Shown here: one piece after another, positions 7,728 to 59,264 of the stretch
Numbering within the stretch: the first letter of the stretch is position 1
Layout: every line of letters starts with the position of its first letter
Source of the DNA: Candidatus Parcubacteria bacterium
GTDB taxonomy: Bacteria > Patescibacteriota > Minisyncoccia > Phycocordibacterales > UBA5272
DNA: 64,000 bases
Direction of reading: 5' to 3'
Assembly: GCA_039796775.1 (NCBI GenBank)
Contig: JBDKJD010000001.1
Coordinates: forward strand, 88,399 to 152,398
Translations under genes and position numbers: made by a program
The notes under the pieces: model-generated
The model's database searches: none
Told to the model about the DNA's origin: nothing
What the model saw: only the letters and a program-made list of their open reading frames with translations

Positions 7728-7731
7728 TAAT

Positions 7732-7770
7732 AAAAGCGTCCCGCAGGGACGCTTTTATTATTATTCTTTT
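7732..7770 (+). terminator. intrinsic terminator after rpmA
   Basis: aaaagcgtccc-gcag-ggacgctttt hairpin plus T-rich tract. Confidence 0.7.
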
Positions 7771-8249: not shown

Positions 8250-8350
8250 AGTGGCTATTATACATGAGGAAATGAAATGTATAAAGAACGAAAAGCCGAA
8301 GGCTTTTCGTTCTTTATTACACTACGCACCAATTAATTAAGAGAGTGTAT

Positions 8351-11077: not shown

Positions 11078-11083
11078 TCGAAC

Positions 11084-11117
11084 ACTAGATGCGTCGCCGT
11101 AGGCGACGCATCTAGTG
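11084..11117 (+). terminator. hairpin after cysS
   Basis: Perfect 15-bp inverted repeat cactagatgcgtcgcc/ggcgacgcatctagtg. Weak U-tract. Confidence 0.5.
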
Positions 11118-14190: not shown

Positions 14191-14230
14191 GGATAGTGTT
14201 TAGCTTTCAGACATTAGTTGTTAGTAATAT

Positions 14231-14262
14231 AAAAGCGCGACCACTTCGTGGTCGCGCTTTTA
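14231..14262. terminator. bidirectional terminator between recR and rplU
   Basis: aaaagcgcgacca-cttc-gtggtcgcgctttt perfect hairpin with A- and T-tracts on both sides. Confidence 0.7.
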
Positions 14263-14293
14263 TATTCTTCTTAAAACTTAAAACTGTTTACTA

Positions 14294-19487: not shown

Positions 19488-19548
19488 GGACGAAATACTA
19501 TCAATAAGCGGGACCCTTCGGGTCCCGCTTATTGATAGTATTTCGTCC
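19488..19548. repeat. 61-bp perfect palindrome (29-bp arms, 3-nt loop)
   Basis: Left arm gacgaaatactatcaataagcgggaccc, loop ttc, right arm gggtcccgcttattgatagtatttcgtc. No flanking U-tract. Confidence 0.8.
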
Positions 19549-20476: not shown

Positions 20477-20547
20477 TGGGGTATCGTCTAATGGTAGGAC
20501 ATCAGGTTTTGGTCCTGAGTATCGTGGTTCGAGTCCATGTACCCCAG
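20477..20547 (+). tRNA. tRNA-Gln (anticodon UUG)
   Basis: Cloverleaf: acceptor TGGGGTA/TACCCCA. Anticodon stem TCAGG/CCTGA, loop TTTTGGT. T-arm GTGGTTCGAGTCCAT. Close to the E. coli tRNA-Gln pattern. CCA not encoded. Confidence 0.9.
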
Positions 20548-20722
20548 CAAACTTTTTAAATCAGGATTTTTGCTTGATTTAGCAATAACAGAATAGAGAG
20601 AAACGTATTGAGAACTAATGATTTTCTTATCTTTCACTGTAGCGTTCGTGAGTAACTTTTTTAACATATTACGTTTCTTCGCTATATAGCCGTTACGAAG
20701 AAGAGTTATTGACTACAAAAAT

Positions 20723-21770
20723 ATGTACACAGACTTTCTTAACCAGAGAGCTGTTAATCCCATAACAGGAGAATCATGGTTTATGCACAGGGATTTGCGT
20801 AAAGCCTTCATTTCTTTTTGTAATCTTTTACCATATCTTTTTACTTACACAAAATACAAAGACATGCCTGCAACTTCTAATTCGCTAGAGGGTCACTTTA
20901 ATCACATCAAGAGATACACGGCAGTGCATAACGGTCTTTCCCTTAAAAGGAAGCAGAAGCTGATTACTGCCATACTTTTGAATTCGTCTGTTACTTTAGA
21001 TGAAGAAAGGGGTGATTAGCAGATATTGGGAGCTATATGCCAAGAAATCATACCTCTTCCTTATCAGGGTAATGGACTCTGTATTATTGTCGACGGTATC
21101 TTTGTTGGAAGAGGTCATTGTATCTTGATTGCTATAGACAGTGACGGAATACCTATTACTTGGTATGAGTGCACACAAGAGAACACAACAACGTGGGTGA
21201 TACTCTTTGAACAAGTAAAGCATCAAGGGGGTAGACACACTCTCTTTGATAGTCTCAGATGGTCAAAAAGGCTTACTTAAAGCTATGGATACTACATTCC
21301 CTAATGTTCCACACCAACGATGCATGACACATGTTGTACGCTTGGCACAAGCTTGGCTTACGAGATTTCCAAAGACAGTCGCAGGAAGAGAGTTAAGAAC
21401 AATAGTTAGTTCACCATATTCTGTTACAACACAAAAAGGTAGAGATAACTGGAACATGATATTTAATCACTGGTGCAGTATTCATTATGATTTTTTAAAA
21501 GAGAAAAGTATTCCACTTGGAAATGGTAGACCTTGGTATACACACCGCAGACTACGAGCGGTAAGATCTCTTATTCTTGGAGCTCAACCAGAATTATTTA
21601 CATTTCTTTCTGTAGCAGATACACCCAAGACAACGAATGATGTTGAAGGTGGTTTAAATAGTCCAATGAAGGCACTTTTACGTCATCACAGAGGCATGTC
21701 ACCAAAGCACAGAGAAGTGCTTGTTTTTCGATTTTTACGAAGAAGACAAATACAGAAATACCAACACTAA
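20723..21770 (+). mobile_element. degenerate IS256/Mutator-like transposase, split over three frames (20723-21019, 21026-21280, 21246-21770)
   Basis: Middle fragment has the first DDE region (IIVDGIFVGRGHCILIAIDSDGIPITWYE). The last fragment has IVSDGQKGL..FPNVPHQRCMTHVVR and TTNDVEGGLNSPMKALLRHHRGMS (TNxxEsxNxxxK-like). The first fragment carries a second C-terminal-like copy (TSNSLEGHFNHIKR). Lies directly downstream of tRNA-Gln. Confidence 0.6.
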
Positions 21771-21851
21771 AAGTTAATTAACCCAAATAAGAAAAAGGCT
21801 AAAACTTTTATAGAAAATCTTATTAAAATTAAGTAGTTAGTAATTTTAAGT

Positions 21852-22124
21852 TTACTGAATCACCACTACTTTATTTATTATTTTTATCTCACTCTTAAAA
21901 CATCCCAACATATCCCTCTTCTCAAACACAGACCCTTTCTGTAAAATATACCGTGCATAATTTCGTATATCTACGTCATTCACTTTATAATCTTCCTCTT
22001 GTTTGCCCATAATATTTGAGTGGAAGATTTTGTGTCTTTCAATCTCTACTTCAAGTTTCTTCTTTAACCCTGATTTGTCTAAATCTATCTTATCGATTAT
22101 CTCTACTAATTGAGCAAGTAGCAC
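21852..22124 (-). CDS. hypothetical protein
   Basis: ORF only. Confidence 0.3.
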   Translation of the reverse strand: MLLAQLVEIIDKIDLDKSGLKKKLEVEIERHKIFHSNIMGKQEEDYKVNDVDIRNYARYILQKGSVFEKRDMLGCFKSEIKIINKVVVIQ

Positions 22125-22156
22125 CCTCTCCTCTGTATACCCTTCCTTACAATGAA

Positions 22157-22293
22157 GCTCCCCGGGTCAGAGACCTTCCCTCACTCATTCCATTCGTATC
22201 GGCGGGGTATCTAGGAAAGCTCTGCAAGGATTATTGAAAACCGAGGTTTTCAAACTTTCCTACAAAGTTCCCACGGGCTAATGCCCGGGGAGT
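22157..22293 (+). promoter_or_regulatory. candidate structured RNA leader upstream of flavoprotein gene
   Basis: ctccccggg (22158-22166) is the exact reverse complement of cccggggag (22285-22293). Nested stems ggaaag/ctttcc and gaaaacc/ggttttc lie inside. A competing local hairpin cgggc-taat-gcccg overlaps the 3' arm. Confidence 0.35.
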
Positions 22294-22377
22294 GTGAATC
22301 AAGACCTTATGTCACTCTACACTATCTTTCTGCGAGTAATTTGCAAATGTATGCGATACTATGATACGATATATTTA

Positions 22378-23490
22378 ATGCAAACTATTCGCAAGTATGA
22401 CGTTCTCATCATCGGAGCTGGTCCATCTGGTATCGGTACAGCTATTACCCTTATGGAATTCGGTGTCAAAAATATTCTCGTTGTAGACAAAGAATCAATC
22501 GGTGCGTCATTCCTCTTGTGGCCAAAAGAAACTCGGCTCATTACACCATCTTTTACTGGTCACCAATTCGGAGGATTAGATTTAAACGCTATCACCTATG
22601 CCACCTCTCCGGCATATACATTAAGCACAGAACATCCTTCAGGAAGAGAGTATCAGCGATACTTATTAGAGTGTGCAAAAGAATTCAAAGTCCCATTCAA
22701 AAAGGAAACCATACTCTCAATCAAAAAAGAATCTGAATATTTTGAATGTTCCACACAAGACGGGATGATACACGCAACTTATGTTGTTACTGCTATTGGA
22801 GAATTCAACTTCCCTAACACAGAACCTTTTGAGGGAGCAGAGCTCTGTCGACACACTGCAACTATTTCGTCATATGATGCTATTACTGGAGATGTTATCT
22901 ATATCATAGGGGGTTATGAAAGTGGCACAGACGCAGCTATACATCTATCCAAGAACAAAAAACATATCACCATATTCGACACTAATAACCCATGGGACAG
23001 AAGAGAGAGCGACCCTAGTGTCACACTGTCCCCTTTTACATTAGATAGATTACGAGAAGAGATGCGCGCAGGCTCTATCAATCTGAGTCCACAAGAGAAA
23101 GTGATACGTGTCACCTTAGACCAAGGCGTGTATACAATAGAAACAAATAGAGAATCATATACAACAATCACTCAACCGATACTCGCCTCTGGCTTCATCT
23201 CTGTGCCTCCGCTTATAAAAAATATATTTAATTCTCAGCATGGGATTCCTCTTATTTCTGATATCGATGAATCTACAATAGTTCCAAATGCTTTTCTCGT
23301 TGGACCAAAAGTATTTCATAGCAATGTCATCTTTTGTTTCATTTATAAATACAGACAACGTTTTGGTATCGTCGCTAATGCGATAGCGACAAGAATGGGT
23401 ATACAAACATCAGCCTCTGTAGAATTCTATCGCAACAAAACTATGTATCTCGATGACCTCTCTTGTTGTAATGACGCTTGCGTTTGTTGA
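22378..23490 (+). CDS. FAD/NAD(P)-binding oxidoreductase (pyridine nucleotide-disulfide / flavin monooxygenase-like)
   Basis: Rossmann motif KYDVLIIGAGPSGIGTAI at the chosen start. A second dinucleotide-binding region IYIIGGYESG. ORF-track start at 22294 is an upstream alternative codon. Confidence 0.7.
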   Translation: MQTIRKYDVLIIGAGPSGIGTAITLMEFGVKNILVVDKESIGASFLLWPKETRLITPSFTGHQFGGLDLNAITYATSPAYTLSTEHPSGREYQRYLLECAKEFKVPFKKETILSIKKESEYFECSTQDGMIHATYVVTAIGEFNFPNTEPFEGAELCRHTATISSYDAITGDVIYIIGGYESGTDAAIHLSKNKKHITIFDTNNPWDRRESDPSVTLSPFTLDRLREEMRAGSINLSPQEKVIRVTLDQGVYTIETNRESYTTITQPILASGFISVPPLIKNIFNSQHGIPLISDIDESTIVPNAFLVGPKVFHSNVIFCFIYKYRQRFGIVANAIATRMGIQTSASVEFYRNKTMYLDDLSCCNDACVC

Positions 23491-23545
23491 GATTAATCTT
23501 AACAATTCTCTTGTATGATATACCTAACACTATACACTAACTACT

Positions 23546-23812
23546 ATGAAACTATCTCTTTTCACCAATCACAAAACATTATCTATTCTCAACAGTATTA
23601 CTGGTATCGCGCTTATCACAGCTGGAGTATTTTATTTTTATAAAACAAAAACATTTGATATGTCACTCTCTTGGATTATATTTGGAGTAATGTATTTAGT
23701 GATGGAATCATATCCATGTGACTGTAGACAGCCTAAGCGTGTCGTGATCTTCGCTTGGATTGGTATGATACTTTCATTACTATTAGCGTTCTATTACATG
23801 GTGACATTATAG
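23546..23812 (+). CDS. hypothetical small membrane protein
   Basis: Two to three hydrophobic helices. Confidence 0.35.
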   Translation: MKLSLFTNHKTLSILNSITGIALITAGVFYFYKTKTFDMSLSWIIFGVMYLVMESYPCDCRQPKRVVIFAWIGMILSLLLAFYYMVTL

Positions 23813-23827
23813 TAGCTTGTTATAAAC

Positions 23828-23858
23828 AAAAAAACCACACGGGGAACCGCGTGGTTTT
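23828..23858 (+). terminator. intrinsic terminator
   Basis: aaaaaccacacgg-gga-accgcgtggtttt hairpin (one mismatch) plus T-tract. Confidence 0.6.
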
Positions 23859-23876
23859 GAAAGGTACAAAAAACAA

Positions 23877-24185
23877 TCACAAGATGCTGAAGATATCTCC
23901 ATTAACAGAGCAGAAGATAATCAACAACATGATGACATCAAGTACACCAGGTGCTTGTTTTTTAATTGCCCGTAAATGAACCACTCTAAGCCGTTTAATA
24001 TCATACGCTAGTGATTCATTGCCAGAGCGAACAGCTTCAGCTTTTTCATAGTTGATGAATACCAACATCATCACACGACAGGTGAACGAGATGAATGGTA
24101 AACATACACAAAGCAGAAAAAAGAAAATCACCAGAGAGAAAAAATAGGCGGCTCCAAAAAAGTTAATACTAATCCCAGCCCACAC
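23877..24185 (-). CDS. hypothetical small membrane protein
   Basis: Hydrophobic ORF. Confidence 0.3.
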   Translation of the reverse strand: MWAGISINFFGAAYFFSLVIFFFLLCVCLPFISFTCRVMMLVFINYEKAEAVRSGNESLAYDIKRLRVVHLRAIKKQAPGVLDVIMLLIIFCSVNGDIFSIL

Positions 24186-24238
24186 CTAATCCAATAAACA
24201 CCCTGCCTTGATATTCCTGATGTATACTTATTTTATAC

Positions 24239-24634
24239 ATGAACTCCTACACATCGTACGCTGAATTAATAAAACCAGAATGGGCACCACCGGCGTTTCT
24301 TTTTGGACCCGTGTGGGCGGTTCTCTACCTCATTATCGCTATCTCTTTTAGCTTTGTTTTTTATGAAGTCTATAAAGGGAAGCTCTCAAAGTCAATCGCT
24401 CTCCCCTTTCTCCTTAATATCATATTCAATATTGCTTTTACTCCGATACAATTCGAACTAAAAAATAATCTTTTAGCGCTCATTGATATTATTGCGGTCC
24501 TGATAACTCTCATCTGGGCGATGTATGCCATCTATCCCAAGTTCCGCTTTGTTGCTCTCGCCAATATCCCCTATCTTCTCTGGGTCTCTTTCGCTACTAT
24601 ACTTCAAGCCACTATCACATTCCTTAACTGGTAA
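24239..24634 (+). CDS. tspO: TspO/MBR family (tryptophan-rich sensory protein)
   Basis: LIKPEWAPPAFLFGPVWAVLYLIIAISF signature. Multi-TM. 131 aa. Confidence 0.7.
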   Translation: MNSYTSYAELIKPEWAPPAFLFGPVWAVLYLIIAISFSFVFYEVYKGKLSKSIALPFLLNIIFNIAFTPIQFELKNNLLALIDIIAVLITLIWAMYAIYPKFRFVALANIPYLLWVSFATILQATITFLNW

Positions 24635-24661
24635 TCAAAGCTCATTATTCACACGATCATT

Positions 24662-25498
24662 ATGATACATCGTCATCTACACAAAGCATTCAAACATACA
24701 TTCGTCCCTCATGAGGGTAATGATTACAGACCACATTTCATGCGTGAGCATGTGGTACTCTCTATGGTGATAGTGATTATCTTTTCTCTCATCGTGTCTG
24801 TCACCAGTTATATAGTATTGCGCAAAACTTCATATGGCACTTTGGTTATCCCCTCTGTCCTTGTAGATCTCACCAACAAAGAAAGACTAGATAATAATCT
24901 TCCGCCTTTTATCAAGCACCCTCTTCTTGAATATTCTTCTCAATTAAAAGGTGAGGAGATGGTCTCATACAATTACTTTGCTCATGAGTCTCCGGACGGG
25001 AGCGCTCCCTGGAAATTCTTTAAACGAGCACTCTATCCTTATAGTTACGCAGGAGAGAATCTCGCACTTAACTTCTTCACTTCTCCTCAAGTGCATACAG
25101 GGTGGATGAATTCCCCTCTTCATAGAAAGAATATTCTAGACCCTAACTTCAAAGAAATCGGGATCTCGGTACTCATAAAAGAAAATGTTGACAGAGAAGA
25201 CACATTATTTGTGGTGCAACATTTTGGAACTCAAAAAAATACCGCCTACAGCAACACTCTTGTGATGACCTATTATTCTAGCCTGCTACAGAGAATTATT
25301 TTCATGACACCTCTTTATATAGAATATCTGTATCTCTTCTTAATAACGCTTGTTATTATAGCGTTACTTGCTCTAACATTAATAGAAGTAGAGAAGAAAC
25401 ATACTCATCATCTTTTTTATGGAGTGTTAATGCTTGTTATTCTACTTTTGGCTATTATGATTAATGCTACACTTCTCTCATACACACCACATGCCTAA
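24662..25498 (+). CDS. CAP (SCP/PR-1-like) domain protein with membrane anchors
   Basis: YNYFAHESPDGS...YAGENLA...GWMNSPLHRKNILDPNFKEIG matches CAP-domain signatures. N- and C-terminal TM helices. Confidence 0.7.
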   Translation: MIHRHLHKAFKHTFVPHEGNDYRPHFMREHVVLSMVIVIIFSLIVSVTSYIVLRKTSYGTLVIPSVLVDLTNKERLDNNLPPFIKHPLLEYSSQLKGEEMVSYNYFAHESPDGSAPWKFFKRALYPYSYAGENLALNFFTSPQVHTGWMNSPLHRKNILDPNFKEIGISVLIKENVDREDTLFVVQHFGTQKNTAYSNTLVMTYYSSLLQRIIFMTPLYIEYLYLFLITLVIIALLALTLIEVEKKHTHHLFYGVLMLVILLLAIMINATLLSYTPHA

Positions 25499-32713: not shown

Positions 32714-33620
32714 CTATTCTAACAGAGGAAGAGTTTTTTTGAAATGAATCAACATGTTTATCACCGAAACGATAGAAGACTTTATTTCCAAAACGTATAT
32801 CTATATACTTAAGAGCTTCTTTTTTGTTAATCAATTCTTCCTTAAGAGGATTGGTATCTATGGCGCTTAAAAGGATAAGCCATGTCTTACTAAGGGAGTC
32901 TTCCTTCTCGATAATAACATAGCTAGAACCCCCCTCTTTGTAGAGAAGAATATCATTATCTTCATTTAAAATGATTCTCTCTACTTTGAATAGTGTTGTT
33001 TGTATATTCTCCACAAATATCGCTAATTCTTCTAAATACTCCTCTTCTAACGAATTGATAACGATTCTATCTGATCCTGATATTTTTTTGGTCGAAGTAG
33101 CAAATGATAATTCAAAAAAAGGAAGATTGCATTCTTTGATATCACAATCAAAGATGACTCCTTCTTTTGACATCACTGTGGATGTGCTCACACGAAACAG
33201 AGGTACGAATCTTTCAATCGAAATAACTATAGTGTTCCTATCTTTCAAAGCGACCGACACTGACTGAGTGTCTGCGATGAGGGTGTTCACACTTTTAACT
33301 ATCGCTTGATGATTATAGGTGAGGGATTTGTTATGAGGGAAAAGAAAAAAGCTGTTACCTTGTTCTGCTTGTCTGATAAGAGAGACGAGCGCTTCTTGTT
33401 TTGTGTCATCTATACCAACTACGGTATATGATGTAATCAAAAAATAAGAAGTAGTACGATACAAAAAGATACCATATGACACAAGCAAAGCACTAAGAAT
33501 CAGGATCATCACACGCAGCCATCCTCTGTTACTCTTTTTTCTCTGTGACATGAGGAGAGAAATATTATACGATAGGGACGCCGATTGTTGTCTTGCCTCC
33601 CATGTAAGGGATAAGTACAT
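32676..33620 (-). CDS. FtsQ/DivIB-like cell-division protein (TM + POTRA-like)
   Basis: Single TM after a basic N-terminus. YTVVGIDDTKQEALVSL...VKSVNTLIADTQSVSV...FVPLFRV resembles a POTRA domain. Confidence 0.5.
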   Translation of the reverse strand: MYLSLTWEARQQSASLSYNISLLMSQRKKSNRGWLRVMILILSALLVSYGIFLYRTTSYFLITSYTVVGIDDTKQEALVSLIRQAEQGNSFFLFPHNKSLTYNHQAIVKSVNTLIADTQSVSVALKDRNTIVISIERFVPLFRVSTSTVMSKEGVIFDCDIKECNLPFFELSFATSTKKISGSDRIVINSLEEEYLEELAIFVENIQTTLFKVERIILNEDNDILLYKEGGSSYVIIEKEDSLSKTWLILLSAIDTNPLKEELINKKEALKYIDIRFGNKVFYRFGDKHVDSFQKNSSSVRIDDHDIQATTTLR

Positions 33621-34836
33621 CTGGCACTCTCACTGTACCATCAGGTTGTTGATAATTCTCAATAATTGCAATCAATAGTCGAGGTGTCGCTGCAGCTGTA
33701 TTGTTAAGCGAATGCACATACTGCAACTTATTATTACTGTCTTTGTATCTAATATTTAATCGACGTGATTGAAAATCGTGGAAATAGCTCGCTGAATGTG
33801 TCTCACGATACTTCCCCTGTGACGGTATCCATGCTTCGATGTCATACTTTTTAACTTGCCCTAATCCTAAATCACCCCCACAAATAAGAAGTCTGTGATA
33901 TGGGATACCAAGCTCTTGCATCATCTCTTCTGAATGCTTGGTGATTGCTTCATGATGAGCGACAGATTCTTCGTGAGTAGCGGCACAAAGTACCACTTGT
34001 TCACATTTATAAAATTCATGAACCCTCACAAGTCCTTTGACATCCTTGCCATGGCTTCCAGCTTCTTTTCTAAAACATGGGCTCCATACAATATAACGCT
34101 TTGGTAATTCCTTCTCATCGAGCACTTCATCACTGTGATAAAACATAGTCGCGACTTCCCCTGTTCCTGCCATATAATCATTACCATCTTTGTAGAGATC
34201 ATCTTCCCCTTGTGGCAAATATCCAGAACCAAGTAATGCTTCTCGTCGCACCAAGGACGGCACAAGCATAGGCTCAAACCCTTTCTTTTGCCAACGATTC
34301 ATCACATATTGCCATACAGCCATCTCAAGAAGCGCAGCGTCTCCCTTTAAGAAATATCCTCTGAATCCAGATGTCTTAGTACCACGATCAAAGTCAACAA
34401 AGTTCTGCTTCTCCATGAGTGTTATATGATCCATGACAGGGAACGAGAAGGTTGGGATAGTCCCCCATGTTGCTATCTCAATATTCTCGCTATCGTCCTT
34501 CCCTTCTGGAACTGACATGTCTGGGATATTGGGAACTTGGAGCATGAGCATTCTCCATGATTTCATAATCTCTTCGAGTTCATCTTCTTTCTTTTTGAGA
34601 TTATCTTTTACTTGACGCATCCCATCAATCATTGTCTGTCGTTCGAGGGCGCTCGCTTTAGCGATCGCATCACTTGATAGATTCTGCTTTGCTCTTAGAT
34701 CTTCAACCTCTTTTAGGAGAGCGAGCCTAGTGTCATCTATAGCAACGAGTTCAGAAACCTTAAAAGACGAGTGCTTTTTCTTGGCAGCTAATTCAATAAG
34801 TTCTTTATTTTCTTTAATAAATTTAATGTCTAACAT
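33565..34836 (-). CDS. serS: seryl-tRNA synthetase
   Basis: N-terminal coiled-coil arm (MLDIKFIKEN). Class II motifs, including the motif-2 region GYRETHSASYFHDFQSRRLNIRY. Confidence 0.95.
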   Translation of the reverse strand: MLDIKFIKENKELIELAAKKKHSSFKVSELVAIDDTRLALLKEVEDLRAKQNLSSDAIAKASALERQTMIDGMRQVKDNLKKKEDELEEIMKSWRMLMLQVPNIPDMSVPEGKDDSENIEIATWGTIPTFSFPVMDHITLMEKQNFVDFDRGTKTSGFRGYFLKGDAALLEMAVWQYVMNRWQKKGFEPMLVPSLVRREALLGSGYLPQGEDDLYKDGNDYMAGTGEVATMFYHSDEVLDEKELPKRYIVWSPCFRKEAGSHGKDVKGLVRVHEFYKCEQVVLCAATHEESVAHHEAITKHSEEMMQELGIPYHRLLICGGDLGLGQVKKYDIEAWIPSQGKYRETHSASYFHDFQSRRLNIRYKDSNNKLQYVHSLNNTAAATPRLLIAIIENYQQPDGTVRVPDVLIPYMGGKTTIGVPIV

Positions 34837-34903
34837 GAGAATCATTCTATCATGTTTACAAGGATCTTTAAAAGCTGTAGATAAGCCTATATACTAATCT
34901 CAT

Positions 34904-35590
34904 ATGCGAGAAGAACATAGTGAGGATATGATCAATAATTTAAATGAAGTGCATCCGTCAATATCTCAACACGAAGAAACGTACTCATATAAGAGTCGAG
35001 GCATGCGAGACAAAATAGCTAAAGGCTTCGTGGCCGCCTTAGCTGAGTCAGCAGATTTTCTCTTTAGGGAACGTTACGGACATAGAGCGATAGTACTTGA
35101 AACTGTCGCCTCAGTTCCTGGAATGGTTGGAGGATTCTTCCAACACATGAAATCGTTACGAAGAATACAAGATGACAGAGGCTGGATACAGACACTGTTA
35201 GATGAGGCGGAGAATGAGAGAATGCACTTGCTTATTTATAGCGAAATAGCCAAACCTACTGCTTTTGAAAGATTCTTGATTATTGTTGTACAGTTCTTCT
35301 TCTCTCTTCTTTATTTTATTTTGTACGCATGCTCTCCAAAGACCGCTCATAGAGTTGTTGGATATTTTGAAGAACAAGCTATACACAGCTATGAAACATA
35401 TCTTCGATTGGTGCACGAAGGTGTTCACGAGAACATAGAAGCGACTACTCTTGCTAAGTCATATTGGAATCTACGAGAGGACGCTCGTCTTATCGATGTC
35501 ATAGAAGCCACAATTCGAGATGAGATGCTTCATAGAGATGTGAATCACAGATTCGCGAATGACAGAGAAGGTACTAAACTTTGGTGGTAA
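34904..35590 (+). CDS. aox: alternative oxidase (AOX, di-iron ubiquinol oxidase family)
   Basis: All four AOX iron-binding motifs are present: LETVASVPGMVGG, ENERMHL, EEQAIHSY, RDEMLHRDVNH. Near-collinear with trypanosomal/plant AOX cores. Confidence 0.85.
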   Translation: MREEHSEDMINNLNEVHPSISQHEETYSYKSRGMRDKIAKGFVAALAESADFLFRERYGHRAIVLETVASVPGMVGGFFQHMKSLRRIQDDRGWIQTLLDEAENERMHLLIYSEIAKPTAFERFLIIVVQFFFSLLYFILYACSPKTAHRVVGYFEEQAIHSYETYLRLVHEGVHENIEATTLAKSYWNLREDARLIDVIEATIRDEMLHRDVNHRFANDREGTKLWW

Positions 35591-35592
35591 AT

Positions 35593-35643
35593 ACGGGGAT
35601 ACTAAAAACGGACGCCGCAGGCGTCCGTTTTTAGTATCCCCGT
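35593..35643. terminator. 51-bp perfect palindrome / bidirectional terminator
   Basis: acggggatactaaaaacggacgcc-gcag-ggcgtccgtttttagtatccccgt. 23-bp arms with A/T tracts. Confidence 0.7.
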
Positions 35644-35711
35644 ATTACCTTACCCCCCCCCTATACCCACTCACACATTCATCTTCTCACATTGGTTTTT
35701 TGGTCACACTG

Positions 35712-40315: not shown

Positions 40316-40388
40316 GGGCCCTTAGCTCATATGGTAGAGCGCCGGTTTTGCACTCCGGAGGTGAGCGGTTCGATTCCGCTAGGGTCCA
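40316..40388 (+). tRNA. tRNA-Ala (anticodon UGC)
   Basis: Acceptor GGGCCCT/AGGGTCC with the G3:U70 Ala identity pair. Anticodon loop TTTGCAC. T-arm AGCGGTTCGATTCCGCT. Resembles E. coli tRNA-Ala. One 31:39 U-U mismatch. Confidence 0.88.
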
Positions 40389-40399
40389 CTCGGGTTAAC

Positions 40400-40430
40400 A
40401 AAAGCATAATACATATTGTATTATGCTTTT
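40400..40430 (+). terminator. intrinsic terminator after tRNA-Ala
   Basis: aaaagcataataca-tat-tgtattatgctttt hairpin. Confidence 0.6.
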
Positions 40431-40450
40431 GTGTTAAACAACCTGAAGAG

Positions 40451-40695: not shown

Positions 40696-40802
40696 AGGCG
40701 GGTTTTCTTATTCTATTTTTTCATACTCTCCTTTCAATACCCAAGAAAGATACTTCAATTCTTTTACAATTTGGTTCAGAAAAATGATGTCGAAGTCCAC
40801 AG
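40696..40802 (+). repeat. 107-bp direct repeat, copy A
   Basis: aggcgggttttcttattctattttttcatactctcctttcaa...ggttcagaaaaatgatgtcgaagtccacag. Six mismatches in 107 bp against copy B. Confidence 0.9.
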
Positions 40803-40834: not shown

Positions 40835-40907
40835 GTATTTGACGTTGCTATATTCATTCACTTGACATGCAGGTTTGCAACGTCGCCTGCGGGCCCAAGG
40901 AGTTCTT

Positions 40908-41315
40908 GTGGAACACATTCAAATCGGTACGAAAGATGCAGGGGCTGGCACAGCAGCAACGATCACCAAGCCGCTGGACAGCGAGCCCCGTGCGAAAACC
41001 TTCCTGGCCGAGTACCTGCGTTCGCGAAGTATACCGGTGAATATCTACAGCATGACCTTCTCGACAGAAAAACGTGAGTTCAAGCTCAACACCACATCGA
41101 AAGATGTCTTTCTTCAGCTCGGTGCCATGGATGAAGAAGGCCAGCGTGCGTTTGGGCTCATGGTCTACCATCGTGCAACCATGGATGGGCGCGCGCTCGT
41201 GACATTCCCGCATACTGACGGATGTAAGGGATATTTATGCATCGTAACTCGGGGAATGGGTAACGACCACGAGGAGCGTATCCACATTGACATCTCCATC
41301 GCATCTGACAAATAG
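40908..41315 (+). CDS. hypothetical protein encoded in a GC-rich foreign-looking cassette
   Basis: Markedly GC-richer than flanking DNA. AAGGAG (40896-40901) 6 nt upstream of GTG 40908. ORF-track alternative start TTG 40875. No family recognised. Confidence 0.5.
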   Translation: MEHIQIGTKDAGAGTAATITKPLDSEPRAKTFLAEYLRSRSIPVNIYSMTFSTEKREFKLNTTSKDVFLQLGAMDEEGQRAFGLMVYHRATMDGRALVTFPHTDGCKGYLCIVTRGMGNDHEERIHIDISIASDK

Positions 41316-41353: not shown

Positions 41354-41460
41354 AGGCGGGTTTTCTTATTCTATTTTTTCATACTCTCCTTTCAAAATCC
41401 AAGAAAGATAGTTCAATTCTTTAGCAACTTGGTTCAGAAAAATGATGTCGAAGTCCACAG
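41354..41460 (+). repeat. 107-bp direct repeat, copy B
   Basis: About 94% identical to copy A. Its last 8 nt, gtccacag, form the outer end of the following palindrome. Confidence 0.9.
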
Positions 41461-41510
41461 AAAAAGTAAAAGCAGTATCAAAAGATACTGCTTTTACTTT
41501 TTCTGTGGAC
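41453..41510. terminator. 58-bp perfect palindrome (27-bp arms) / strong terminator
   Basis: gtccacagaaaaagtaaaagcagtatc-aaaa-gatactgcttttactttttctgtggac. Confidence 0.7.
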
Positions 41511-50501: not shown

Positions 50502-52169
50502 CTACCCCCTATCCACATGACTCCACGCGAAGTCTTTATCTCCATGAACTTTCTTGCCAGGGTTCAAGATATTTTCTGGATCAAAAATCTTTTTTGTCTT
50601 TTCAAAGAGGGAGATAATCTCTGGTGAATACATTTTCGGAAGATATGATGTTCTCAAAAGGCCATCATTATGCTCTCCTGACATAGAACCTTGATACTTG
50701 AATATGAGCGTATACACTTCATCCATGAGTGCGTGCAATGTCTCAACTATCCCTTCTTTATGAATATCAACGAGCGGAATAATGTGAAAGTTAGCATCCC
50801 CCATGTGTCCAGCGACGGTATAGATAAGGTCTTTGTATTTTTCTTGACTAAAAATAACTTCAAGTTCAGGGAGGAATTGTGGGAGGTCTTGTGGATGTAC
50901 AACAATGTCATCAATAGTGGGCGCTGTTCTGTACCCTTGCATGCGAGAGCGGAGGAGTGCGAAGCTCTCTCTTCTGAATGTCCAGTATTTTTTGGCTTGG
51001 GATGCGCTTGTTGTTTTTTTGATTGGAAGATTAAACTGCTTCATATCTTCATACGCTTTGGTTACTTTTTCATCAACCTCTTCTTCTGTATCACCAGTGA
51101 ATTCTGCCATAAGAATAATCTTAGGGACACCACCAGTTAACACCATCATGAATTCTGGCAAGAATTGAAGACCTAGAGTGATCATGTTGCCTCCCATGCG
51201 AACGGCGATATCTTTGAAGAATTTCATTGCTATCTTGAAGGTGTGATCATCGTATGACTCGAGTGTCTCTGGCTTATGTTCAAGCATTTTGACAATAATT
51301 TCTCCAAGATGGACGGTGGACGGTACGAACATAACAAGCATTCTCGAATGAGTCTTCGGTGCTACACCATTAAATGTTATAGAACTAACCCCGGCGAGCG
51401 TCCCCTGACTTCCTGCTATGAGGCGCGCGAGATTAAATACTTCGGTCTCTTTGTCATACACATTCCATAAGTAATATCCTGAGGAGTTTTTAGAAACTGA
51501 CGGCTTGGCGCTCATAATGGTGTCATAGTTCTCTGTGATAAGCGTATACATTTCTCTATGAATTCTTCCTCCTTCACCTTTTTCTTGCATTTTTTGTATC
51601 ATCTCTTCTTTGGTAAATACGCGAAGAAGGTCTCTCTCTCCATTAGCATAGACAACATCTAATGACTCAATATACTCTTCTGTCTTACCATAGGTGAGAG
51701 TCTTCTCTCCTCCTGAATTATTAGATACTATACCACCAAGCGCTGCCAATTCTCGAGAAGCTGGATAGCTCGGCATAAGCCACCCTTCTTGAAGCGTTGC
51801 TTTCTCAAAATCACGATAATATACTCCAGGCTCGGCTGTTCCATGTTCCTTAGTCACTTCTCCTATATGATTCATATATCGTGTCGTATCTATAACAATT
51901 GATGTTGAGAGTGGACCTCCTGTCATACAGGTTCCAGCTGCACGGAATGCGACTGATACATCAAATCCTTCTTTCTTCTTTTGATTAACGAGTGTTAAGA
52001 GCGATGAAATATCATGCGCATCTTTTGGATACACAACAAGTTCTGGAACAACATGAAATATACTTGTATCTTTAGATACCTTTTCTCTATCTTCTAAGAG
52101 AAGAGACCCGTCACCTTTGAAAGATACTGAGAGCTCTTTTGCGAATTCTTCGTAATTAATAGTACTCAT
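50502..52169 (-). CDS. FAD-linked oxidase (GlcD / D-lactate dehydrogenase family)
   Basis: PCMH-type FAD-binding N-terminal domain. C-terminal FDPENILNPGK signature. Start placed at the internal Met (MSTINYEEF). Confidence 0.8.
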   Translation of the reverse strand: MSTINYEEFAKELSVSFKGDGSLLLEDREKVSKDTSIFHVVPELVVYPKDAHDISSLLTLVNQKKKEGFDVSVAFRAAGTCMTGGPLSTSIVIDTTRYMNHIGEVTKEHGTAEPGVYYRDFEKATLQEGWLMPSYPASRELAALGGIVSNNSGGEKTLTYGKTEEYIESLDVVYANGERDLLRVFTKEEMIQKMQEKGEGGRIHREMYTLITENYDTIMSAKPSVSKNSSGYYLWNVYDKETEVFNLARLIAGSQGTLAGVSSITFNGVAPKTHSRMLVMFVPSTVHLGEIIVKMLEHKPETLESYDDHTFKIAMKFFKDIAVRMGGNMITLGLQFLPEFMMVLTGGVPKIILMAEFTGDTEEEVDEKVTKAYEDMKQFNLPIKKTTSASQAKKYWTFRRESFALLRSRMQGYRTAPTIDDIVVHPQDLPQFLPELEVIFSQEKYKDLIYTVAGHMGDANFHIIPLVDIHKEGIVETLHALMDEVYTLIFKYQGSMSGEHNDGLLRTSYLPKMYSPEIISLFEKTKKIFDPENILNPGKKVHGDKDFAWSHVDRG

Positions 52170-52233
52170 ATATAACGAGTGTAGCAAAACAAATATGATA
52201 ATCAAATAACACTCTCAAGATAATGAAGGGTGA

Positions 52234-53958
52234 TTATTTGATGGCTTCTTCTAACTTTTTCTCTATTTCTTGTTCTATTACCTCTAATCGCTTCTTAAAC
52301 TTTTTCATAATAGCTTGCTCTTCTTTGGTTAACTCTCTTTTCTTTTCTGCTTTGACCAAAACATCATGGAACTCTTCTACATCTCTACGAAGCGCAGAAA
52401 CATTCATTTCTAAGGTATTCTCTACCTCACGAAGCTTACGCTTAACGTTCCTTCTAAAAAGATTAAATTGAACAAATGCATACCAAAGCGTAGCAATGAC
52501 TGCGAGTAGTGCTATAACAATGATAAGTATCACAGAAAGCCAATTCATCACAAAAATTCCAAATCGAAGAAGTAACATTCTCTCCACTTCTATTACTTTG
52601 ATATTAGTGAAATCACTCACCGCGCCTTTGCTATCAAACACTCTTACCTTCATCTCATACACCCCAGAAGGAATCTTGTCTTTCCACGTGAGACTAAATA
52701 CTCCGACTTCATCTGTAGTTACATCTCTTATTAAGGCTTCGCCGTTTTTGTTGGTGAGTGTTACTTCTACTCTAGAATTAGGATATGAGGCTCCGACTAC
52801 TTTTAATTGAGAATCAAATTCTACTTTTCTGGAATATTCAGTAATGAGAGGTGGATTAATAGCTTGAATAGTGTAATCAAGTGACGCTGTTGAACTGTTC
52901 CCCGCTTGATCAGTAACTGTAATGATAACAGTATGCTTGCCTGGACTTTGTCTTGGGAGTCTATAAATACCTGAATCTTCTTTGGTCATCTCTATGGCTT
53001 GACCTCCATCAATAGAAAGAGAAATAGTCTTGATGCCAGAGAGTGTGTCACTTGAATTAATCACTAAACTTGGAGTGATATTAGTAGTCACTGATCCATC
53101 TGGGAACGTTGCCTGATCAATGGTTGGCGCTTGTGTATCTATTTGAAATTTATACGTAGATACAGCTCCCCATCCGTCAGCATTTTTGAACTGTACCTTC
53201 ATATAAAAGATTCCATCTTCATCCACTGTGAATGATCTACTAGCTACAGGCGGAGTGTAGACCCTTGAAGGGTTGTCTGTTTCTTTGTCTGAATATACCG
53301 TTCTCACAGAAGTAACATTTGAAGAGATTTTCCATTCAAAACTTGCATCTCTTCTTGAATACCAGGCGGTGCTATCTGGATGAGTTGGAGAGGTTATAAC
53401 AGGAAGAGAAAGTTCTACTGGTTCCTTCTCAACAACATTACCCTCTTCTCCTATATAAACAAGCGCAGAACCTGTTGTTTTTAGTACATCTGTCGCATTC
53501 CCGTCATTTAACAATACAGCGCCTTCTTTAATAACAATACTAACATTCCCTGCTTCTTTAGCTTTGAATGTGACTGTTATAACTTTGCCGGTAGCCTTGC
53601 TGTACCCTGGATTAAGAGCAACACCTTCTAGCGAGATTGTGCCTTTTTCATTAGAAAAAGTGGGCTCCTCTGCCCAAAGACTCATAAAAGACCCTGTCTT
53701 AGAAATAGAGATAACTTCAAGAGCATCCTTTGGAAATGTCGCATCAAGCGATACGGCATTAATAGCTTCTGTATTATTGGTAACATTAAAATCTACTTTG
53801 AATGTTCTCCCAACTGACGTAGAAACAGACGAAGGAGATACTATTAAGTTAGCAGCACTTACATATAACTGACTAGAGATACAAACAAATAGAGCGACCG
53901 CTATAAGAAGACTATTTTTTATTGAGGGGGTGGCGATATGCATGTATGATAATAACAA
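52234..53958 (-). CDS. surface protein with N-terminal cohesin-like domain, Ig-like repeats, C-terminal TM and coiled-coil tail
   Basis: Cohesin-like beta-sandwich pattern (TFKVDFNVTNN..AINAVSLDATFPKDALEVISI...KGTISLEGVAL...KVITVTFKAKEAGNVSIVI). TM helix VMNWLSVILIIVIALLAVIATLW. Confidence 0.55.
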   Translation of the reverse strand: MLLSYMHIATPSIKNSLLIAVALFVCISSQLYVSAANLIVSPSSVSTSVGRTFKVDFNVTNNTEAINAVSLDATFPKDALEVISISKTGSFMSLWAEEPTFSNEKGTISLEGVALNPGYSKATGKVITVTFKAKEAGNVSIVIKEGAVLLNDGNATDVLKTTGSALVYIGEEGNVVEKEPVELSLPVITSPTHPDSTAWYSRRDASFEWKISSNVTSVRTVYSDKETDNPSRVYTPPVASRSFTVDEDGIFYMKVQFKNADGWGAVSTYKFQIDTQAPTIDQATFPDGSVTTNITPSLVINSSDTLSGIKTISLSIDGGQAIEMTKEDSGIYRLPRQSPGKHTVIITVTDQAGNSSTASLDYTIQAINPPLITEYSRKVEFDSQLKVVGASYPNSRVEVTLTNKNGEALIRDVTTDEVGVFSLTWKDKIPSGVYEMKVRVFDSKGAVSDFTNIKVIEVERMLLLRFGIFVMNWLSVILIIVIALLAVIATLWYAFVQFNLFRRNVKRKLREVENTLEMNVSALRRDVEEFHDVLVKAEKKRELTKEEQAIMKKFKKRLEVIEQEIEKKLEEAIK

Positions 53959-54874
53959 CAGAAGCTAACACAAGTAACACACTCACTATGATACTATTAA
54001 GTATACTGAATAGACGCTGTTTTGTATTTAAGTTTTCAACAGTAGATATAGTTTTGATAGTATAATCACCACTCATATATTCAATATAGAGATGTATATA
54101 GTCTCCTCTTTCTTTGCTGATGACATACGGTAATGATATTTCTTGCCACAAAGAAGAAGTAACATTTGGTTCCGTGCTTTCATTTGACTGAATTAATTTA
54201 ACGAAACGAATAGGACTATAGAGTTTAGTATCCGTGAGGGTGATATACGTTTTTTGACTCTCCAGAGAACTGTCATCCATCAAAAGCAGCTCGATAGAAT
54301 TAATGTCTTTTCTATTGAGCGATAAGGCTGGTACTGTATTTTGATTAGCTACATTTGTGATAGTGAACATATGCTCTTTGGTTCTAGACGTGAGCACTGT
54401 AGCCTTCTCATCAAATGCATGAACTTGAACATTATCAAACAATATAACACCTTTGCCATTACTTTTAGGAGTAAGGAGTATAGTGAATAACTTTCCTTTA
54501 GTGAACGGATTTCCTGACCCAACATATGTATGTGACCACCCACCGATAAAAATACCTTCGAAAGATATAGTACTTCGTTTATTCAACGTATCTTTTTGTA
54601 GAGTGGGCTGAGTGACCCACAAAGGAACAATAGAGTCATAAAGTGATATTGTATAAAGAGACAACATTTCTTCTGGGAAAGAAATACTCCCTGAGACCCC
54701 ACTTACCACACTCCCCTCACTGTCCATATACACAGTAACTGGTACCACCTGAACTCCGTTTATTATTGTCGGTGCATTCACTTCAAAAGACACAGCGTAT
54801 ACACCATGCCATGTGCTTATTACTATACCTATACTAAAGAGTAATTTTTTGTACATAGTTATCCGGTCCAACAA
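53912..54874 (-). CDS. surface protein with cohesin-like domain and C-terminal TM anchor
   Basis: VQVVPVTVYMDSEGSVVSGVSGSISFPEEMLSLYTI...GKLFTILLTPKSNGKGVILF matches the cohesin pattern. C-terminal TM. Confidence 0.55.
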   Translation of the reverse strand: MLDRITMYKKLLFSIGIVISTWHGVYAVSFEVNAPTIINGVQVVPVTVYMDSEGSVVSGVSGSISFPEEMLSLYTISLYDSIVPLWVTQPTLQKDTLNKRSTISFEGIFIGGWSHTYVGSGNPFTKGKLFTILLTPKSNGKGVILFDNVQVHAFDEKATVLTSRTKEHMFTITNVANQNTVPALSLNRKDINSIELLLMDDSSLESQKTYITLTDTKLYSPIRFVKLIQSNESTEPNVTSSLWQEISLPYVISKERGDYIHLYIEYMSGDYTIKTISTVENLNTKQRLFSILNSIIVSVLLVLASVVIIIHAYRHPLNKK

Positions 54875-56753: not shown

Positions 56754-56785
56754 AAAATAAAGAATAATAATAATGAGATGATTGT

Positions 56786-57877: not shown

Positions 57878-58096
57878 AATAATCTCTTAATTCAATAAAA
57901 TCGACACAACAATTAAAGATATGTCTTACCTCTAAGTGTATCACTCCTTTGAATGAAATAGACACATTTGAGTCAAAAAATGTGGAAAAACTTTACTTAA
58001 AAGCTTTAATTGACACTTAACAAAACAGGATAGAAAAACTATATACTTAAAAAATCGGTTAAAAATGGTAGATACTTCGAACAATTCTATTAATAC

Positions 58097-59200: not shown

Positions 59201-59264
59201 GAATAGTAACAGTATACTCTAAGCGTATCATTAAATAACAATACTTTTAAGTGGAAAGAGGTTA

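What the first reader, a model, noticed from the sequence alone, without database searches (positions are those of the whole stretch)
34904..35590. Alternative oxidase (AOX) in a streamlined low-GC genome
The 228-aa product carries all four di-iron AOX motifs in order: LETVASVPGMVGG, ENERMHL, EEQAIHSY and RDEMLHRDVNH. It aligns almost residue-for-residue with eukaryotic AOX cores but lacks the N-terminal extension.

AOX is rare in bacteria. In an organism that otherwise looks like a fermentative, reduced-genome bacterium it is unexpected, because there are no respiratory-chain or quinone-biosynthesis genes nearby. It would need a quinol pool, either host-derived or from an unseen pathway, or it may act as an O2-scavenging or redox-balancing device.

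The gene is followed by a 51-bp perfect palindrome.
Basis: partly seen in the sequence, partly recalled or inferred. Interest (0 to 1): 0.6.

Follow-up and report, generated by a model that had tools for sequence, protein, structure and literature searches.

The report
Alternative oxidase in a Parcubacteria genome
The gene is a genuine, intact alternative oxidase (an oxygen-reducing enzyme that needs membrane quinol) in an ultra-small candidate-phyla-radiation (CPR) bacterium of the Parcubacteria; it is inherited across that whole lineage and sits near a flavin dehydrogenase that could feed it, so the protein is ordinary but where its quinone comes from is unknown.

Summary
ORF 34904-35590 (+) encodes a 228-aa protein that matches Pfam AOX at 225.8 bits. 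All six iron ligands and the catalytic Tyr are present. The predicted fold matches trypanosomal AOX at TM 0.76.

The palindrome is 57 nt, not 51: 27-nt arms and a 3-nt loop. It is one of about nine such perfect terminator hairpins in the window.

The contig is a Candidatus Parcubacteria MAG. NCBI calls this protein "hypothetical"; JGI calls it "ubiquinol oxidase".

The gene is not misbinned, recently transferred or decaying:
- Its composition is typical of the window.
- dN/dS against a close relative is 0.03.
- The serS<->AOX arrangement recurs in many Paceibacterota contigs, up to 775 kb long.
- The clade is monophyletic.

Its bacterial sister group is unresolved.

The window has no respiratory complex or quinone-synthesis gene. 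However, an FAD-linked D-2-hydroxyacid-dehydrogenase-like gene (50502-52205) is repeatedly linked to AOX, and is adjacent in four arrangements elsewhere. In a sister clade AOX is followed directly by a quinone-dependent VKOR gene.

Best reading: a non-pumping quinol:O2 oxidase working on a scavenged quinone pool. It is a new member of a known kind and moderately interesting.

The parts
34904..35590 (+). Alternative oxidase (AOX) coding sequence, 228 aa. Di-iron ligands are E66, E105, H108, E156, E207 and H210; the catalytic Tyr is Y163; one hydrophobic membrane-binding stretch lies at about 120-145.
   Evidence: Pfam 225.8 bits; ligand mapping onto TAO E123/E162/H165/E213/E266/H269/Y220; AF2 pLDDT 83.6; Foldseek TM 0.76 to 3vv9; dN/dS 0.03; hydropathy.
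34867..34895 (+). Promoter-like site TTTAAA-N17-TATACT ending 8 nt before the ATG, with no Shine-Dalgarno sequence. It implies a leaderless or near-leaderless AOX transcript (inferred).
   Evidence: consensus scan; a TATACT-like box 7-11 nt upstream of the AOX ATG recurs in L105, L001, L004-L007, L014, L018, L012, L101 and L102.
35590..35646 (.). Perfect 27+3+27 nt hairpin between the convergent AOX and 156-aa genes. The core GGACGCC-GCA-GGCGTCC is flanked by A5/T5, the form of a bidirectional intrinsic terminator.
   Evidence: dG -54, z -10; same hairpin style at seven other gene ends; different but equally strong hairpins follow AOX in L001, L005, L013, L014, L018 and L101.
33565..34845 (-). 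Seryl-tRNA synthetase, divergent from AOX across a 58-bp spacer. It is a synteny anchor showing vertical inheritance, not a functional partner.
   Evidence: Pfam; serS<->AOX is conserved in L001, L004-L007, L013, L014, L018, L103 and L104; in L011 the upstream block is present but the AOX match runs off the contig end.
35712..36182 (-). 156-aa membrane protein with no Pfam or NCBIfam match, convergent with AOX. It is a conserved neighbour of unknown role.
   Evidence: no family; hydrophobic segment about 64-100; homologs of 57-72% identity lie next to AOX in L004, L006 and L007, and 2 kb away in L001.
50502..52205 (-). FAD-linked oxidase, 567 aa, of the D-lactate / glycolate / D-2-hydroxyglutarate dehydrogenase family. 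It is the candidate electron donor to the quinone pool that AOX would re-oxidise (inferred).
   Evidence: FAD_binding_4 + FAD-oxidase_C. (best NCBIfam hits are the YdiJ N-half and GlcD, both below cut-off). (PDB: LctD, glycolate oxidase and mitochondrial D-LDH; the GH-x-GD-x-N-x-H and GEH motifs align). Linkage to AOX.

Best explanation
The gene encodes a functional, monotopic membrane di-iron quinol:oxygen oxidoreductase (alternative oxidase) that belongs to a Candidatus Parcubacteria/Paceibacterota genome. An ancestor of this lineage acquired a short, bacterial-type AOX once, and it has since been inherited vertically under strong purifying selection. These organisms are not known to make quinones, and the window shows no synthesis genes. 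The enzyme therefore most likely re-oxidises a small pool of quinone scavenged with host or environmental lipids, reducing O2 to water without pumping protons. The most likely reducers of that pool are two. One is the co-inherited FAD-linked D-2-hydroxyacid (D-lactate-type) dehydrogenase, which would oxidise a fermentation product aerobically without NAD+. The other, in the sister clade, is VKOR, which passes electrons from disulfide-bond formation in secreted and pilin proteins to quinone. The net benefit would be redox balancing and oxidative protein folding, with O2 removal, in oxic water. What is shown: identity, catalytic residues, fold, host genome, vertical inheritance, selection and gene linkage. 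What is inferred: the quinone source, the electron donors and the physiological benefit.
For: Identity: Pfam AOX at 225.8 bits. All six Fe ligands and Tyr163 are conserved. They are also invariant or nearly so across the clade, together with N104, D206, Y187 and W188. The AF2 model (pLDDT 83.6) has TAO as its top 14 PDB matches, TM 0.75-0.78. Host: the exact protein is MEN9551754.1 of a 'Candidatus Parcubacteria bacterium' MAG on a 163-kb contig. DnaB, CysRS, L27 and RecR of the window are on the same contig. Native and vertical: GC, GC3 and codon-usage z-scores are 0.48, 0.21 and 0.11. The DUF2914-DnaX-Dus-serS<->AOX synteny holds at 65-71% AOX identity on contigs up to 775 kb. The clade has 95-100% bootstrap support. 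dN/dS is 0.03 at dS 0.65. Partner linkage: the FAD-linked oxidase is adjacent and divergent in L012, L100 and L102, and adjacent and convergent in L025. It is one gene away in L101, 670 bp downstream in L103, and 4-15 kb away in L001, L013, L018 and the window. None of the other 79 AOX loci from the metagenome scan has it within reach; 65 of these 80 loci have GC of 0.45 or more, and 48 have at least 3 kb of flank on one side. AOX and FAD-oxidase hits share identical longest-contig lengths in at least 10 cases. VKOR (PF07884) lies directly downstream of AOX in L012, L100 and L102, followed by prepilin-type genes in L100 and L102. Literature: VKOR is widespread in CPR (PMC6744442). CPR genomes carrying cytochrome bo3 ubiquinol oxidase likewise lack quinone synthesis (PMC8407418).
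Against: No quinone source was demonstrated, and I could not scan a whole AOX-bearing genome for ubi/men/mqn genes. The FAD-linked oxidase has no transmembrane or Fe-S/CCG domain. Its solved relatives use ETF, cytochrome c or partner subunits as acceptors, so quinone reduction by it is unproven. Within the main clade the AOX-dehydrogenase proximity is partly inherited synteny rather than independent evidence. The window and the main-clade loci show no VKOR or DsbB. AOX activity with menaquinol is not established (own knowledge). The sister relation of the L012/L025 group to the main clade has only 35% bootstrap.
Confidence: 0.6

Rival explanations
1. Pure oxygen scavenging or detoxification. 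AOX simply burns whatever quinol is present to keep O2 and ROS low around an otherwise anaerobic fermenter, with no dedicated donor enzyme. This is the same role proposed for cytochrome bo3 oxidase in other CPR.
For: The CPR literature interprets isolated ubiquinol oxidases as detoxification devices because the rest of the chain is missing. No NDH or SDH lies in the window. Titles of related MAGs point to oxic fresh waters: Baikal water column, glacier-fed streams, river surface water.
Against: Sustained scavenging still needs a quinone reductase. The repeated, rearrangement-resistant linkage to one specific FAD dehydrogenase and to VKOR argues for defined donors. This rival differs from the best explanation mainly in emphasis.
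Confidence: 0.25
2. An AOX-fold di-iron enzyme with a different substrate or role: for example a PTOX-like partner of a desaturase, or a hydroxylase or oxidase acting on a non-quinol reductant. This would remove the need for a quinone pool.
For: No quinone pathway was seen. The clade has its own conserved N-terminal (P18, E25) and C-terminal (G-T-x-x-W) residues. In the window itself position 158 is Gln, where TAO has E215.
Against: The residues I recall as contacting quinol-type inhibitors in TAO are retained: R118->R61, L122->L65, A216->A159, and T219->S162, which keeps the hydroxyl (alignment; the roles are from memory of Shiba et al. 2013). Identity to bona fide AOX of proteobacteria and eukaryotes is 50-58%, far closer than to any other di-iron family. 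No desaturase is nearby. VKOR adjacency points to quinone chemistry.
Confidence: 0.08
3. Artefact of binning or assembly, or a very recent transfer from a proteobacterium; or a decaying, non-functional remnant.
For: AOX outside eukaryotes is best known from Alpha-, Beta- and Gammaproteobacteria. One paper attributes its single CPR hit to transfer from proteobacteria. The nearest outgroups are proteobacterial.
Against: The gene is embedded in a 64-kb window of uniform composition. It sits between housekeeping genes whose order is conserved in many independent assemblies, up to 775 kb. The clade is monophyletic. dN/dS is 0.03 and all catalytic residues are intact. An ancient transfer into the lineage remains likely, but that is part of the best explanation.
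Confidence: 0.02

Closest known systems
Trypanosoma brucei alternative oxidase (TAO; PDB 3VV9, 9KUN)
   Same: It has the same Pfam family and the same six Fe ligands and catalytic Tyr. The second-sphere residues N161, D265, Y246 and W247 are conserved. The helical bundle and membrane-binding hydrophobic helix match. The core aligns with one 2-residue gap; the model superposes at TM 0.76.
   Different: Identity is only about 36-40% in the structural alignment. There is no mitochondrial presequence, and the N-terminal arm is much shorter and unrelated (59 residues before the LET motif). Position 158 is Q where TAO has E215, and position 155 is F where TAO has L212.
Proteobacterial AOX. Characterised examples known to me are Novosphingobium aromaticivorans and Vibrio fischeri (own knowledge). 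Found here: MAG 'Pseudomonadota bacterium' P0122, 'Alphaproteobacteria bacterium 40-19' P0130, and Candidatus Pelagibacter P0339/P0378.
   Same: It shares the short bacterial architecture (about 200-230 aa, no presequence, no plant regulatory Cys). Identity is 50-58%. These are the nearest outgroups in the tree.
   Different: Those hosts make ubiquinone and have full respiratory chains, where AOX is a bypass branch (own knowledge). Here no chain is visible in the window. The exact sister group is unresolved (bootstrap 17-35%).
Cytochrome bo3 ubiquinol oxidase (cyoABCDE) operons in Saccharibacteria, Parcubacteria and Doudnabacteria
   Same: It is a functional analogue: a laterally acquired quinol oxidase in CPR genomes that lack quinone biosynthesis, interpreted as an adaptation to oxic habitats or as O2 detoxification.
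   Different: It is an unrelated protein family (heme-copper, multi-subunit, proton-pumping). AOX is a single small di-iron protein that conserves no energy and needs no heme.
Plastid terminal oxidase (PTOX), the other branch of PF01786
   Same: It shares the di-iron carboxylate quinol oxidase fold and ligand pattern (own knowledge).
   Different: The window protein's best matches are all AOX-type sequences. No carotenoid or plastoquinone context is present.

Membership tests
Alternative oxidase (AOX, Pfam PF01786) | Sequence matches the family profile above the curated threshold over its full length | tested here: met
   225.8 bits against a cut-off of 22.7, covering model positions 10-216 of 216.
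Alternative oxidase (AOX, Pfam PF01786) | Four Glu and two His di-iron ligands in the LET / NERMH / EE-x-A / DE-x-x-H motifs (TAO E123, E162, H165, E213, E266, H269) | tested here: met
   E66, E105, H108, E156, E207 and H210 are present. They are invariant or at least 90% conserved in 18- and 32-sequence clade alignments.
Alternative oxidase (AOX, Pfam PF01786) | Catalytic tyrosine (TAO Y220) and second-sphere residues (TAO N161, D265, Y246, W247; the list is recalled from the TAO structure paper) | tested here: met
   Y163, N104, D206, Y187 and W188 align to them and are conserved across the clade. TAO W65 could not be mapped because the N-terminal region was not aligned.
Alternative oxidase (AOX, Pfam PF01786) | Four-helix-bundle di-iron fold with additional helices, as in TAO | tested here: met
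   AF2 pLDDT is 83.6 and pTM 0.81. In the Foldseek PDB search, ranks 1-14 are all TAO chains (E about 1e-10, TM 0.75-0.78); the next hit has E=0.36.
Alternative oxidase (AOX, Pfam PF01786) | Monotopic membrane association through hydrophobic or amphipathic helices | tested here: inconclusive
   One strongly hydrophobic stretch at about 120-145 (Kyte-Doolittle up to 2.4) corresponds to the TAO membrane-facing helix.
Alternative oxidase (AOX, Pfam PF01786) | Cyanide-insensitive, SHAM-sensitive quinol:O2 oxidoreductase activity | not testable with these tools
   This needs a biochemical assay or complementation of a heme-deficient E. coli strain.
Alternative oxidase (AOX, Pfam PF01786) | Homodimer formed through the N-terminal arm | not tested
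   Only a monomer was modelled. The N-terminal 30 residues have low to moderate confidence (pLDDT 58-70).
Branched aerobic respiratory chain containing AOX (as in proteobacteria or mitochondria) | Endogenous quinone biosynthesis plus quinone-reducing dehydrogenase complexes in the same genome | tested here: inconclusive
   None was found in the 64-kb window or in the approximately 20-kb contexts of related loci. Whole genomes could not be scanned.
FAD-linked D-2-hydroxyacid dehydrogenase (VAO/PCMH family), for the partner gene 50502-52205 | FAD_binding_4 + FAD-oxidase_C domains and the His/His/Glu active-site motifs of D-LDH / GlcD / D2HGDH | tested here: met
   Both Pfam domains are present. 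The GHMGDANFH and SGEHNDG segments align to LctD, glycolate oxidase and mouse LDHD. The protein scores far below the NCBIfam equivalog cut-offs, so its substrate is unassigned.

The most novel reading that the evidence does not exclude
A large lineage of Parcubacteria, organisms thought to be strict fermenters without electron transport, runs a minimal two- or three-protein aerobic chain on quinone taken from hosts or the environment. An FAD-linked D-2-hydroxyacid dehydrogenase and/or VKOR-driven disulfide formation would reduce the borrowed quinone, and AOX would pass the electrons to O2. This would be a heme-free, non-pumping 'respiration' that couples lactate oxidation and extracellular protein folding to oxygen.
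Probability: 0.35. Interest if true: 0.7.

Novelty: new member of a known kind. Interest (0 to 1): 0.4.

Why it matters
CPR/Patescibacteria are usually described as anaerobic fermenters, and discussion of their oxygen use has centred on sporadic cytochrome bo3 operons. Here a heme-free alternative oxidase is fixed, vertically inherited and strongly constrained in a whole Parcubacteria lineage from oxic fresh waters. It is genetically tied to a flavin dehydrogenase and, in a sister clade, to VKOR. That implies these cells hold and cycle quinone although they are not known to make it. If confirmed, it would make the 'borrowed quinone' idea directly testable, because a single small gene can be assayed in E. 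coli. It would also give a concrete physiological handle for cultivation: O2, D-lactate and quinone supplements. It would add a non-proteobacterial bacterial clade to AOX evolution. The protein itself is an orthodox AOX, already machine-annotated in public databases, so the enzymology is not new.

Tried and rejected
- The genome-contig scan with the single protein returned only 10 loci, because it uses exact-peptide patterns. That was enough for taxonomy and synteny but not for measuring distribution.
It returned proteins of 49-64% identity, and 65 of the 80 loci have GC of 0.45 or more. I used these as outgroups and as a negative control for dehydrogenase linkage, not as additional CPR contexts.
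- NCBIfam has no model that matches this AOX.
It was rerun with alignment A2.
- A tblastn search with the L012 VKOR against the window and all loci found nothing outside L012 (run before L100/L102 were fetched, where the precomputed Pfam lists show VKOR). Pfam found no VKOR or DsbB in the window.
- The neighbour-joining trees (160 and 185 columns, 100 bootstraps) cannot resolve which bacterial group is sister to the CPR clade, with support of 17-35%. I make no claim about a donor lineage.
- The FAD-oxidase homolog search gave only generic names such as 'FAD/FMN-containing dehydrogenase', so its substrate remains unassigned.
- The Rfam permissive scan of 40.2-42.3 kb gave only spurious miRNA-type hits on a hairpin.
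- Literature searches pairing 'alternative oxidase' with Parcubacteria or Paceibacter returned nothing, and 'AOX' with Paceibacter gave one unrelated paper. Pairing with Patescibacteria returned two papers judged unrelated from title and abstract. Only one passing mention turned up, under 'candidate phyla radiation'.
- Rejected readings: misbinning, recent HGT, pseudogene, an AOX-specific regulatory palindrome.

Full report
**Observation**

The window has an ATG-to-TAA ORF at 34904-35590 (+) of 228 aa. It carries the four quoted motifs. It matches Pfam AOX (PF01786) at 225.8 bits, E=6e-67, over essentially the whole model.

Against the Protein Data Bank the only relatives are trypanosomal alternative oxidases (E about 1e-39). 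Residues 60-222 align with a single 2-residue gap. Mapping that alignment gives:
- iron ligands E66, E105, H108, E156, E207 and H210, equal to TAO E123, E162, H165, E213, E266 and H269;
- catalytic Tyr163, equal to Y220;
- second-sphere residues N104, D206, Y187 and W188.

An AlphaFold2 model built from 32 clade sequences has pLDDT 83.6. Its first 14 PDB matches are all TAO chains, at TM 0.75-0.78.

The inverted repeat after the gene is real but is 57 nt, not 51. It has 27-nt arms and a 3-nt loop, spans 35590-35646, and folds at -54 kcal/mol.

**What organism this is**

The exact protein sequence is NCBI MEN9551754.1, 'hypothetical protein RI935_131 [Candidatus Parcubacteria bacterium]'. JGI names it 'ubiquinol oxidase'. 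It lies on a 163-kb contig that also carries the window's DnaB, CysRS, L27 and RecR. An independent assembly holds the same serS-AOX-156aa-FtsX arrangement.

The rest of the window looks like a typical CPR genome:
- translation and replication genes;
- glycogen and glycolysis genes (GT4, GH57, GH15, PGI, ROK);
- pilin-like or surface proteins;
- many ORFs with no family match.

No respiratory complex, cytochrome, quinone-biosynthesis, VKOR or DsbB gene appears among all ORFs of at least 118 aa and ten of the smaller ones.

**Native or foreign**

Four lines of evidence say the gene is native.
- *Composition.* GC, GC3 and codon usage of the gene sit at z = 0.48, 0.21 and 0.11 within the window's 55 genes.
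The best 120 are 64-96% identical, and nearly all are about 228 aa. The few with organism names are Candidatus Parcubacteria or Paceibacterota; one is already labelled 'alternative oxidase'. Species-representative genomes with the gene are titled Paceibacterota, Nomurabacteria or Parcubacteria, and some third-party assemblies carry a 'Saccharibacteria' label.
- *Synteny.* In ten of the related loci with enough flank the order is DUF2914 - DnaX - (EamA) - Dus - unknown - serS <-> AOX. There AOX is 65-71% identical, SerRS 72-79% and Dus 67-79%. An eleventh, L011, keeps the upstream block (SerRS 62%) but its AOX match is cut by the contig end. Some of these contigs are 559-775 kb, which is genome scale for CPR.
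- *Selection.* Against its closest relative (L105, 89% nucleotide identity) dS is 0.65 and dN is 0.021, so dN/dS is 0.03.

Misbinning, recent transfer and decay are therefore excluded.

**Origin**

A search of 1.84 billion 50%-identity representatives finds 1,841 AOX-family proteins. Neighbour-joining trees of the core recover the Parcubacteria clade with 95-100% bootstrap.

The nearest outgroups are short bacterial AOX:
- 'Alphaproteobacteria bacterium 40-19';
- a Pseudomonadota MAG at 58% identity;
- Candidatus Pelagibacter.

Eukaryotic sequences, such as Cyanophora at 54%, are nearly as close. The branching order has only 17-35% support, so I name no donor. The one paper that mentions a CPR AOX treats it as a transfer from proteobacteria, on the basis of a single hit.

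**Partners**

The window's 567-aa FAD-linked oxidase (50502-52205) has FAD_binding_4 and FAD-oxidase_C domains. It belongs to the D-lactate / glycolate / D-2-hydroxyglutarate dehydrogenase family. Its GH-x-GD-x-N-x-H and GEH motifs align to LctD, glycolate oxidase and mitochondrial D-LDH.

Its position relative to AOX varies across loci:

| Locus | Arrangement relative to AOX |
|---|---|
| Window | 15 kb downstream |
| L001, L013, L018 | 4-9 kb away |
| L103 | 670 bp downstream, convergent |
| L101 | one pilin gene away |
| L025 | adjacent, convergent |
| L012, L100, L102 | adjacent, divergent; serS context lost; AOX only 60% and dehydrogenase 47% identical in L012, which was compared directly |

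None of the other 79 AOX loci recovered from metagenomes has this gene in reach; 65 of the 80 loci have GC of 0.45 or more. AOX and dehydrogenase hits also share the same longest contigs at least ten times.

In L012, L100 and L102 the gene immediately after AOX is a VKOR-family protein. In L100 and L102 it is followed by prepilin-type genes and then rpsB-tsf; in L012 rpsB-tsf follows VKOR directly. Bacterial VKOR passes electrons from disulfide-forming thioredoxin-like proteins to quinone (own knowledge). The family is widespread in CPR.

**Mechanism**

Shown: the gene encodes an intact AOX that is under strong constraint, native to a Parcubacteria lineage, and genetically linked to a flavin dehydrogenase. 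In a sister clade it is linked to a quinone-dependent thiol oxidoreductase.

Inferred: the cell keeps a small quinone pool that it does not synthesise. CPR genomes with cytochrome bo3 oxidase also lack quinone synthesis. The pool would be reduced by the dehydrogenase and/or VKOR. AOX would re-oxidise it with O2 without proton pumping. The result would be NAD-independent oxidation of a fermentation product, regeneration of oxidant for disulfide formation, and removal of O2.

Record titles of related MAGs (Lake Baikal water, glacier-fed streams, river surface water) fit an oxic habitat.

I put about 0.9 on 'functional AOX native to this genome' and about 0.4-0.5 on the donor and quinone-source details.

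Weak points:
- the dehydrogenase has no membrane or Fe-S domain;
- its relatives use varied electron acceptors;
- no VKOR was seen in the window or in main-clade contexts;
- whole genomes could not be scanned.

**The palindrome and expression signals**

The hairpin's core (A5-GGACGCC-GCA-GGCGTCC-T5) is a bidirectional intrinsic terminator between the convergent AOX and 156-aa genes. Eight perfect hairpins with arms of 16-29 nt and 3-nt loops, plus one with a 4-nt loop, lie at or near gene ends or in short intergenic gaps in the window. Other loci have different, equally strong hairpins after AOX. It is therefore the genome's normal terminator style.

Upstream, a TTTAAA-N17-TATACT site ends 8 nt before the ATG. 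A TATACT-like box 7-11 nt before the start is conserved across both clades. This suggests a leaderless transcript.

**Comparison and verdict**

The protein passes every sequence and structure test for AOX membership. Activity and dimerisation are untested. It behaves like proteobacterial AOX in architecture, but it sits in a genome type with no visible chain. Functionally it parallels the cytochrome bo3 oxidases reported in soil CPR.

Public databases already label relatives as AOX or ubiquinol oxidase, and one paper notes a CPR hit. No paper in the searchable library discusses AOX in Parcubacteria.

The gene is a new member of a known kind. The lineage-wide inheritance and the dehydrogenase/VKOR linkage are the parts worth following up. 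Interest: 0.4.

Noticed in passing
window 5301-5339, 7722-7766, 8281-8317, 11083-11117, 14226-14266, 19488-19548, 35590-35646, 40398-40432, 41453-41510: Perfect hairpins with 16-29-nt arms and 3-nt loops (4-nt in one) sit at many gene 3' ends, often between convergent genes. This looks like the genome's standard terminator architecture and is unusually long and perfect.
   Followed up: partly
window 34867-34895; also upstream of AOX in L105, L001, L004-L007, L014, L018, L012, L101, L102: A conserved TTAAAA-N17-TATACT promoter-like box ends only 7-11 nt before the AOX start codon, with no Shine-Dalgarno sequence. This suggests leaderless AOX mRNAs across the lineage.
   Followed up: partly
window 40696-40802 and 41354-41460, bracketing ORF 40875-41315: A 107-nt direct repeat (94% identical) flanks a GC-rich (0.53 against a window mean of 0.39) 146-aa ORF with no family match. 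It lies just downstream of tRNA-Ala (40316-40389) and is followed by a 27-nt-arm hairpin. It is possibly a small inserted cassette.
   Followed up: partly
window 20477-25498: tRNA-Gln is followed by a truncated Mutator-family transposase (21246-21770), a Pyr_redox_3 flavoprotein weakly similar to YpdA (22294-23490), a TspO/MBR tryptophan-rich sensory protein (24239-24634) and a CAP-domain protein. This may be an acquired island carrying redox- or oxygen-related genes.
   Followed up: no
L012 1024-3834; L100 8188-12243; L102 580-4043: In a sister Parcubacteria clade the genes run FAD-linked oxidase <-> AOX -> VKOR, followed by prepilin (N_methyl) genes in L100 and L102, then rpsB-tsf. This compact cluster ties AOX to quinone-dependent disulfide formation and pilins.
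   Followed up: partly
L001 3454-3840; L014 688-1140; L103 2450-2959: Cytochrome-b5-domain proteins (128-169 aa) lie between DUF2914 and DnaX, about 6 kb upstream of AOX, in several relatives. They are absent at that position in the window. A heme-binding domain is unexpected in CPR.
   Followed up: no
window 52234-62549 (also L103 12604-20265): Downstream of the FAD-linked oxidase runs a string of large genes with Big_13 or dockerin traces or no Pfam match, including a 1094-aa ORF. The arrangement is conserved in relatives, and these are probably surface proteins.
   Followed up: no
L004, L005, L006, L009, L010, L013 (record titles): Third-party-annotated MAGs titled 'uncultured Candidatus Saccharibacteria bacterium' share 72-79% identical SerRS and full local synteny with contigs titled Paceibacterota or Parcubacteria. 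Their phylum-level labels look unreliable.
   Followed up: no
P0121 (representative-library hit, 363 aa): The best-scoring representative is a protein holding two tandem, near-identical AOX cores. It is either a tandem duplication or an assembly artefact, and its origin is unknown.
   Followed up: no
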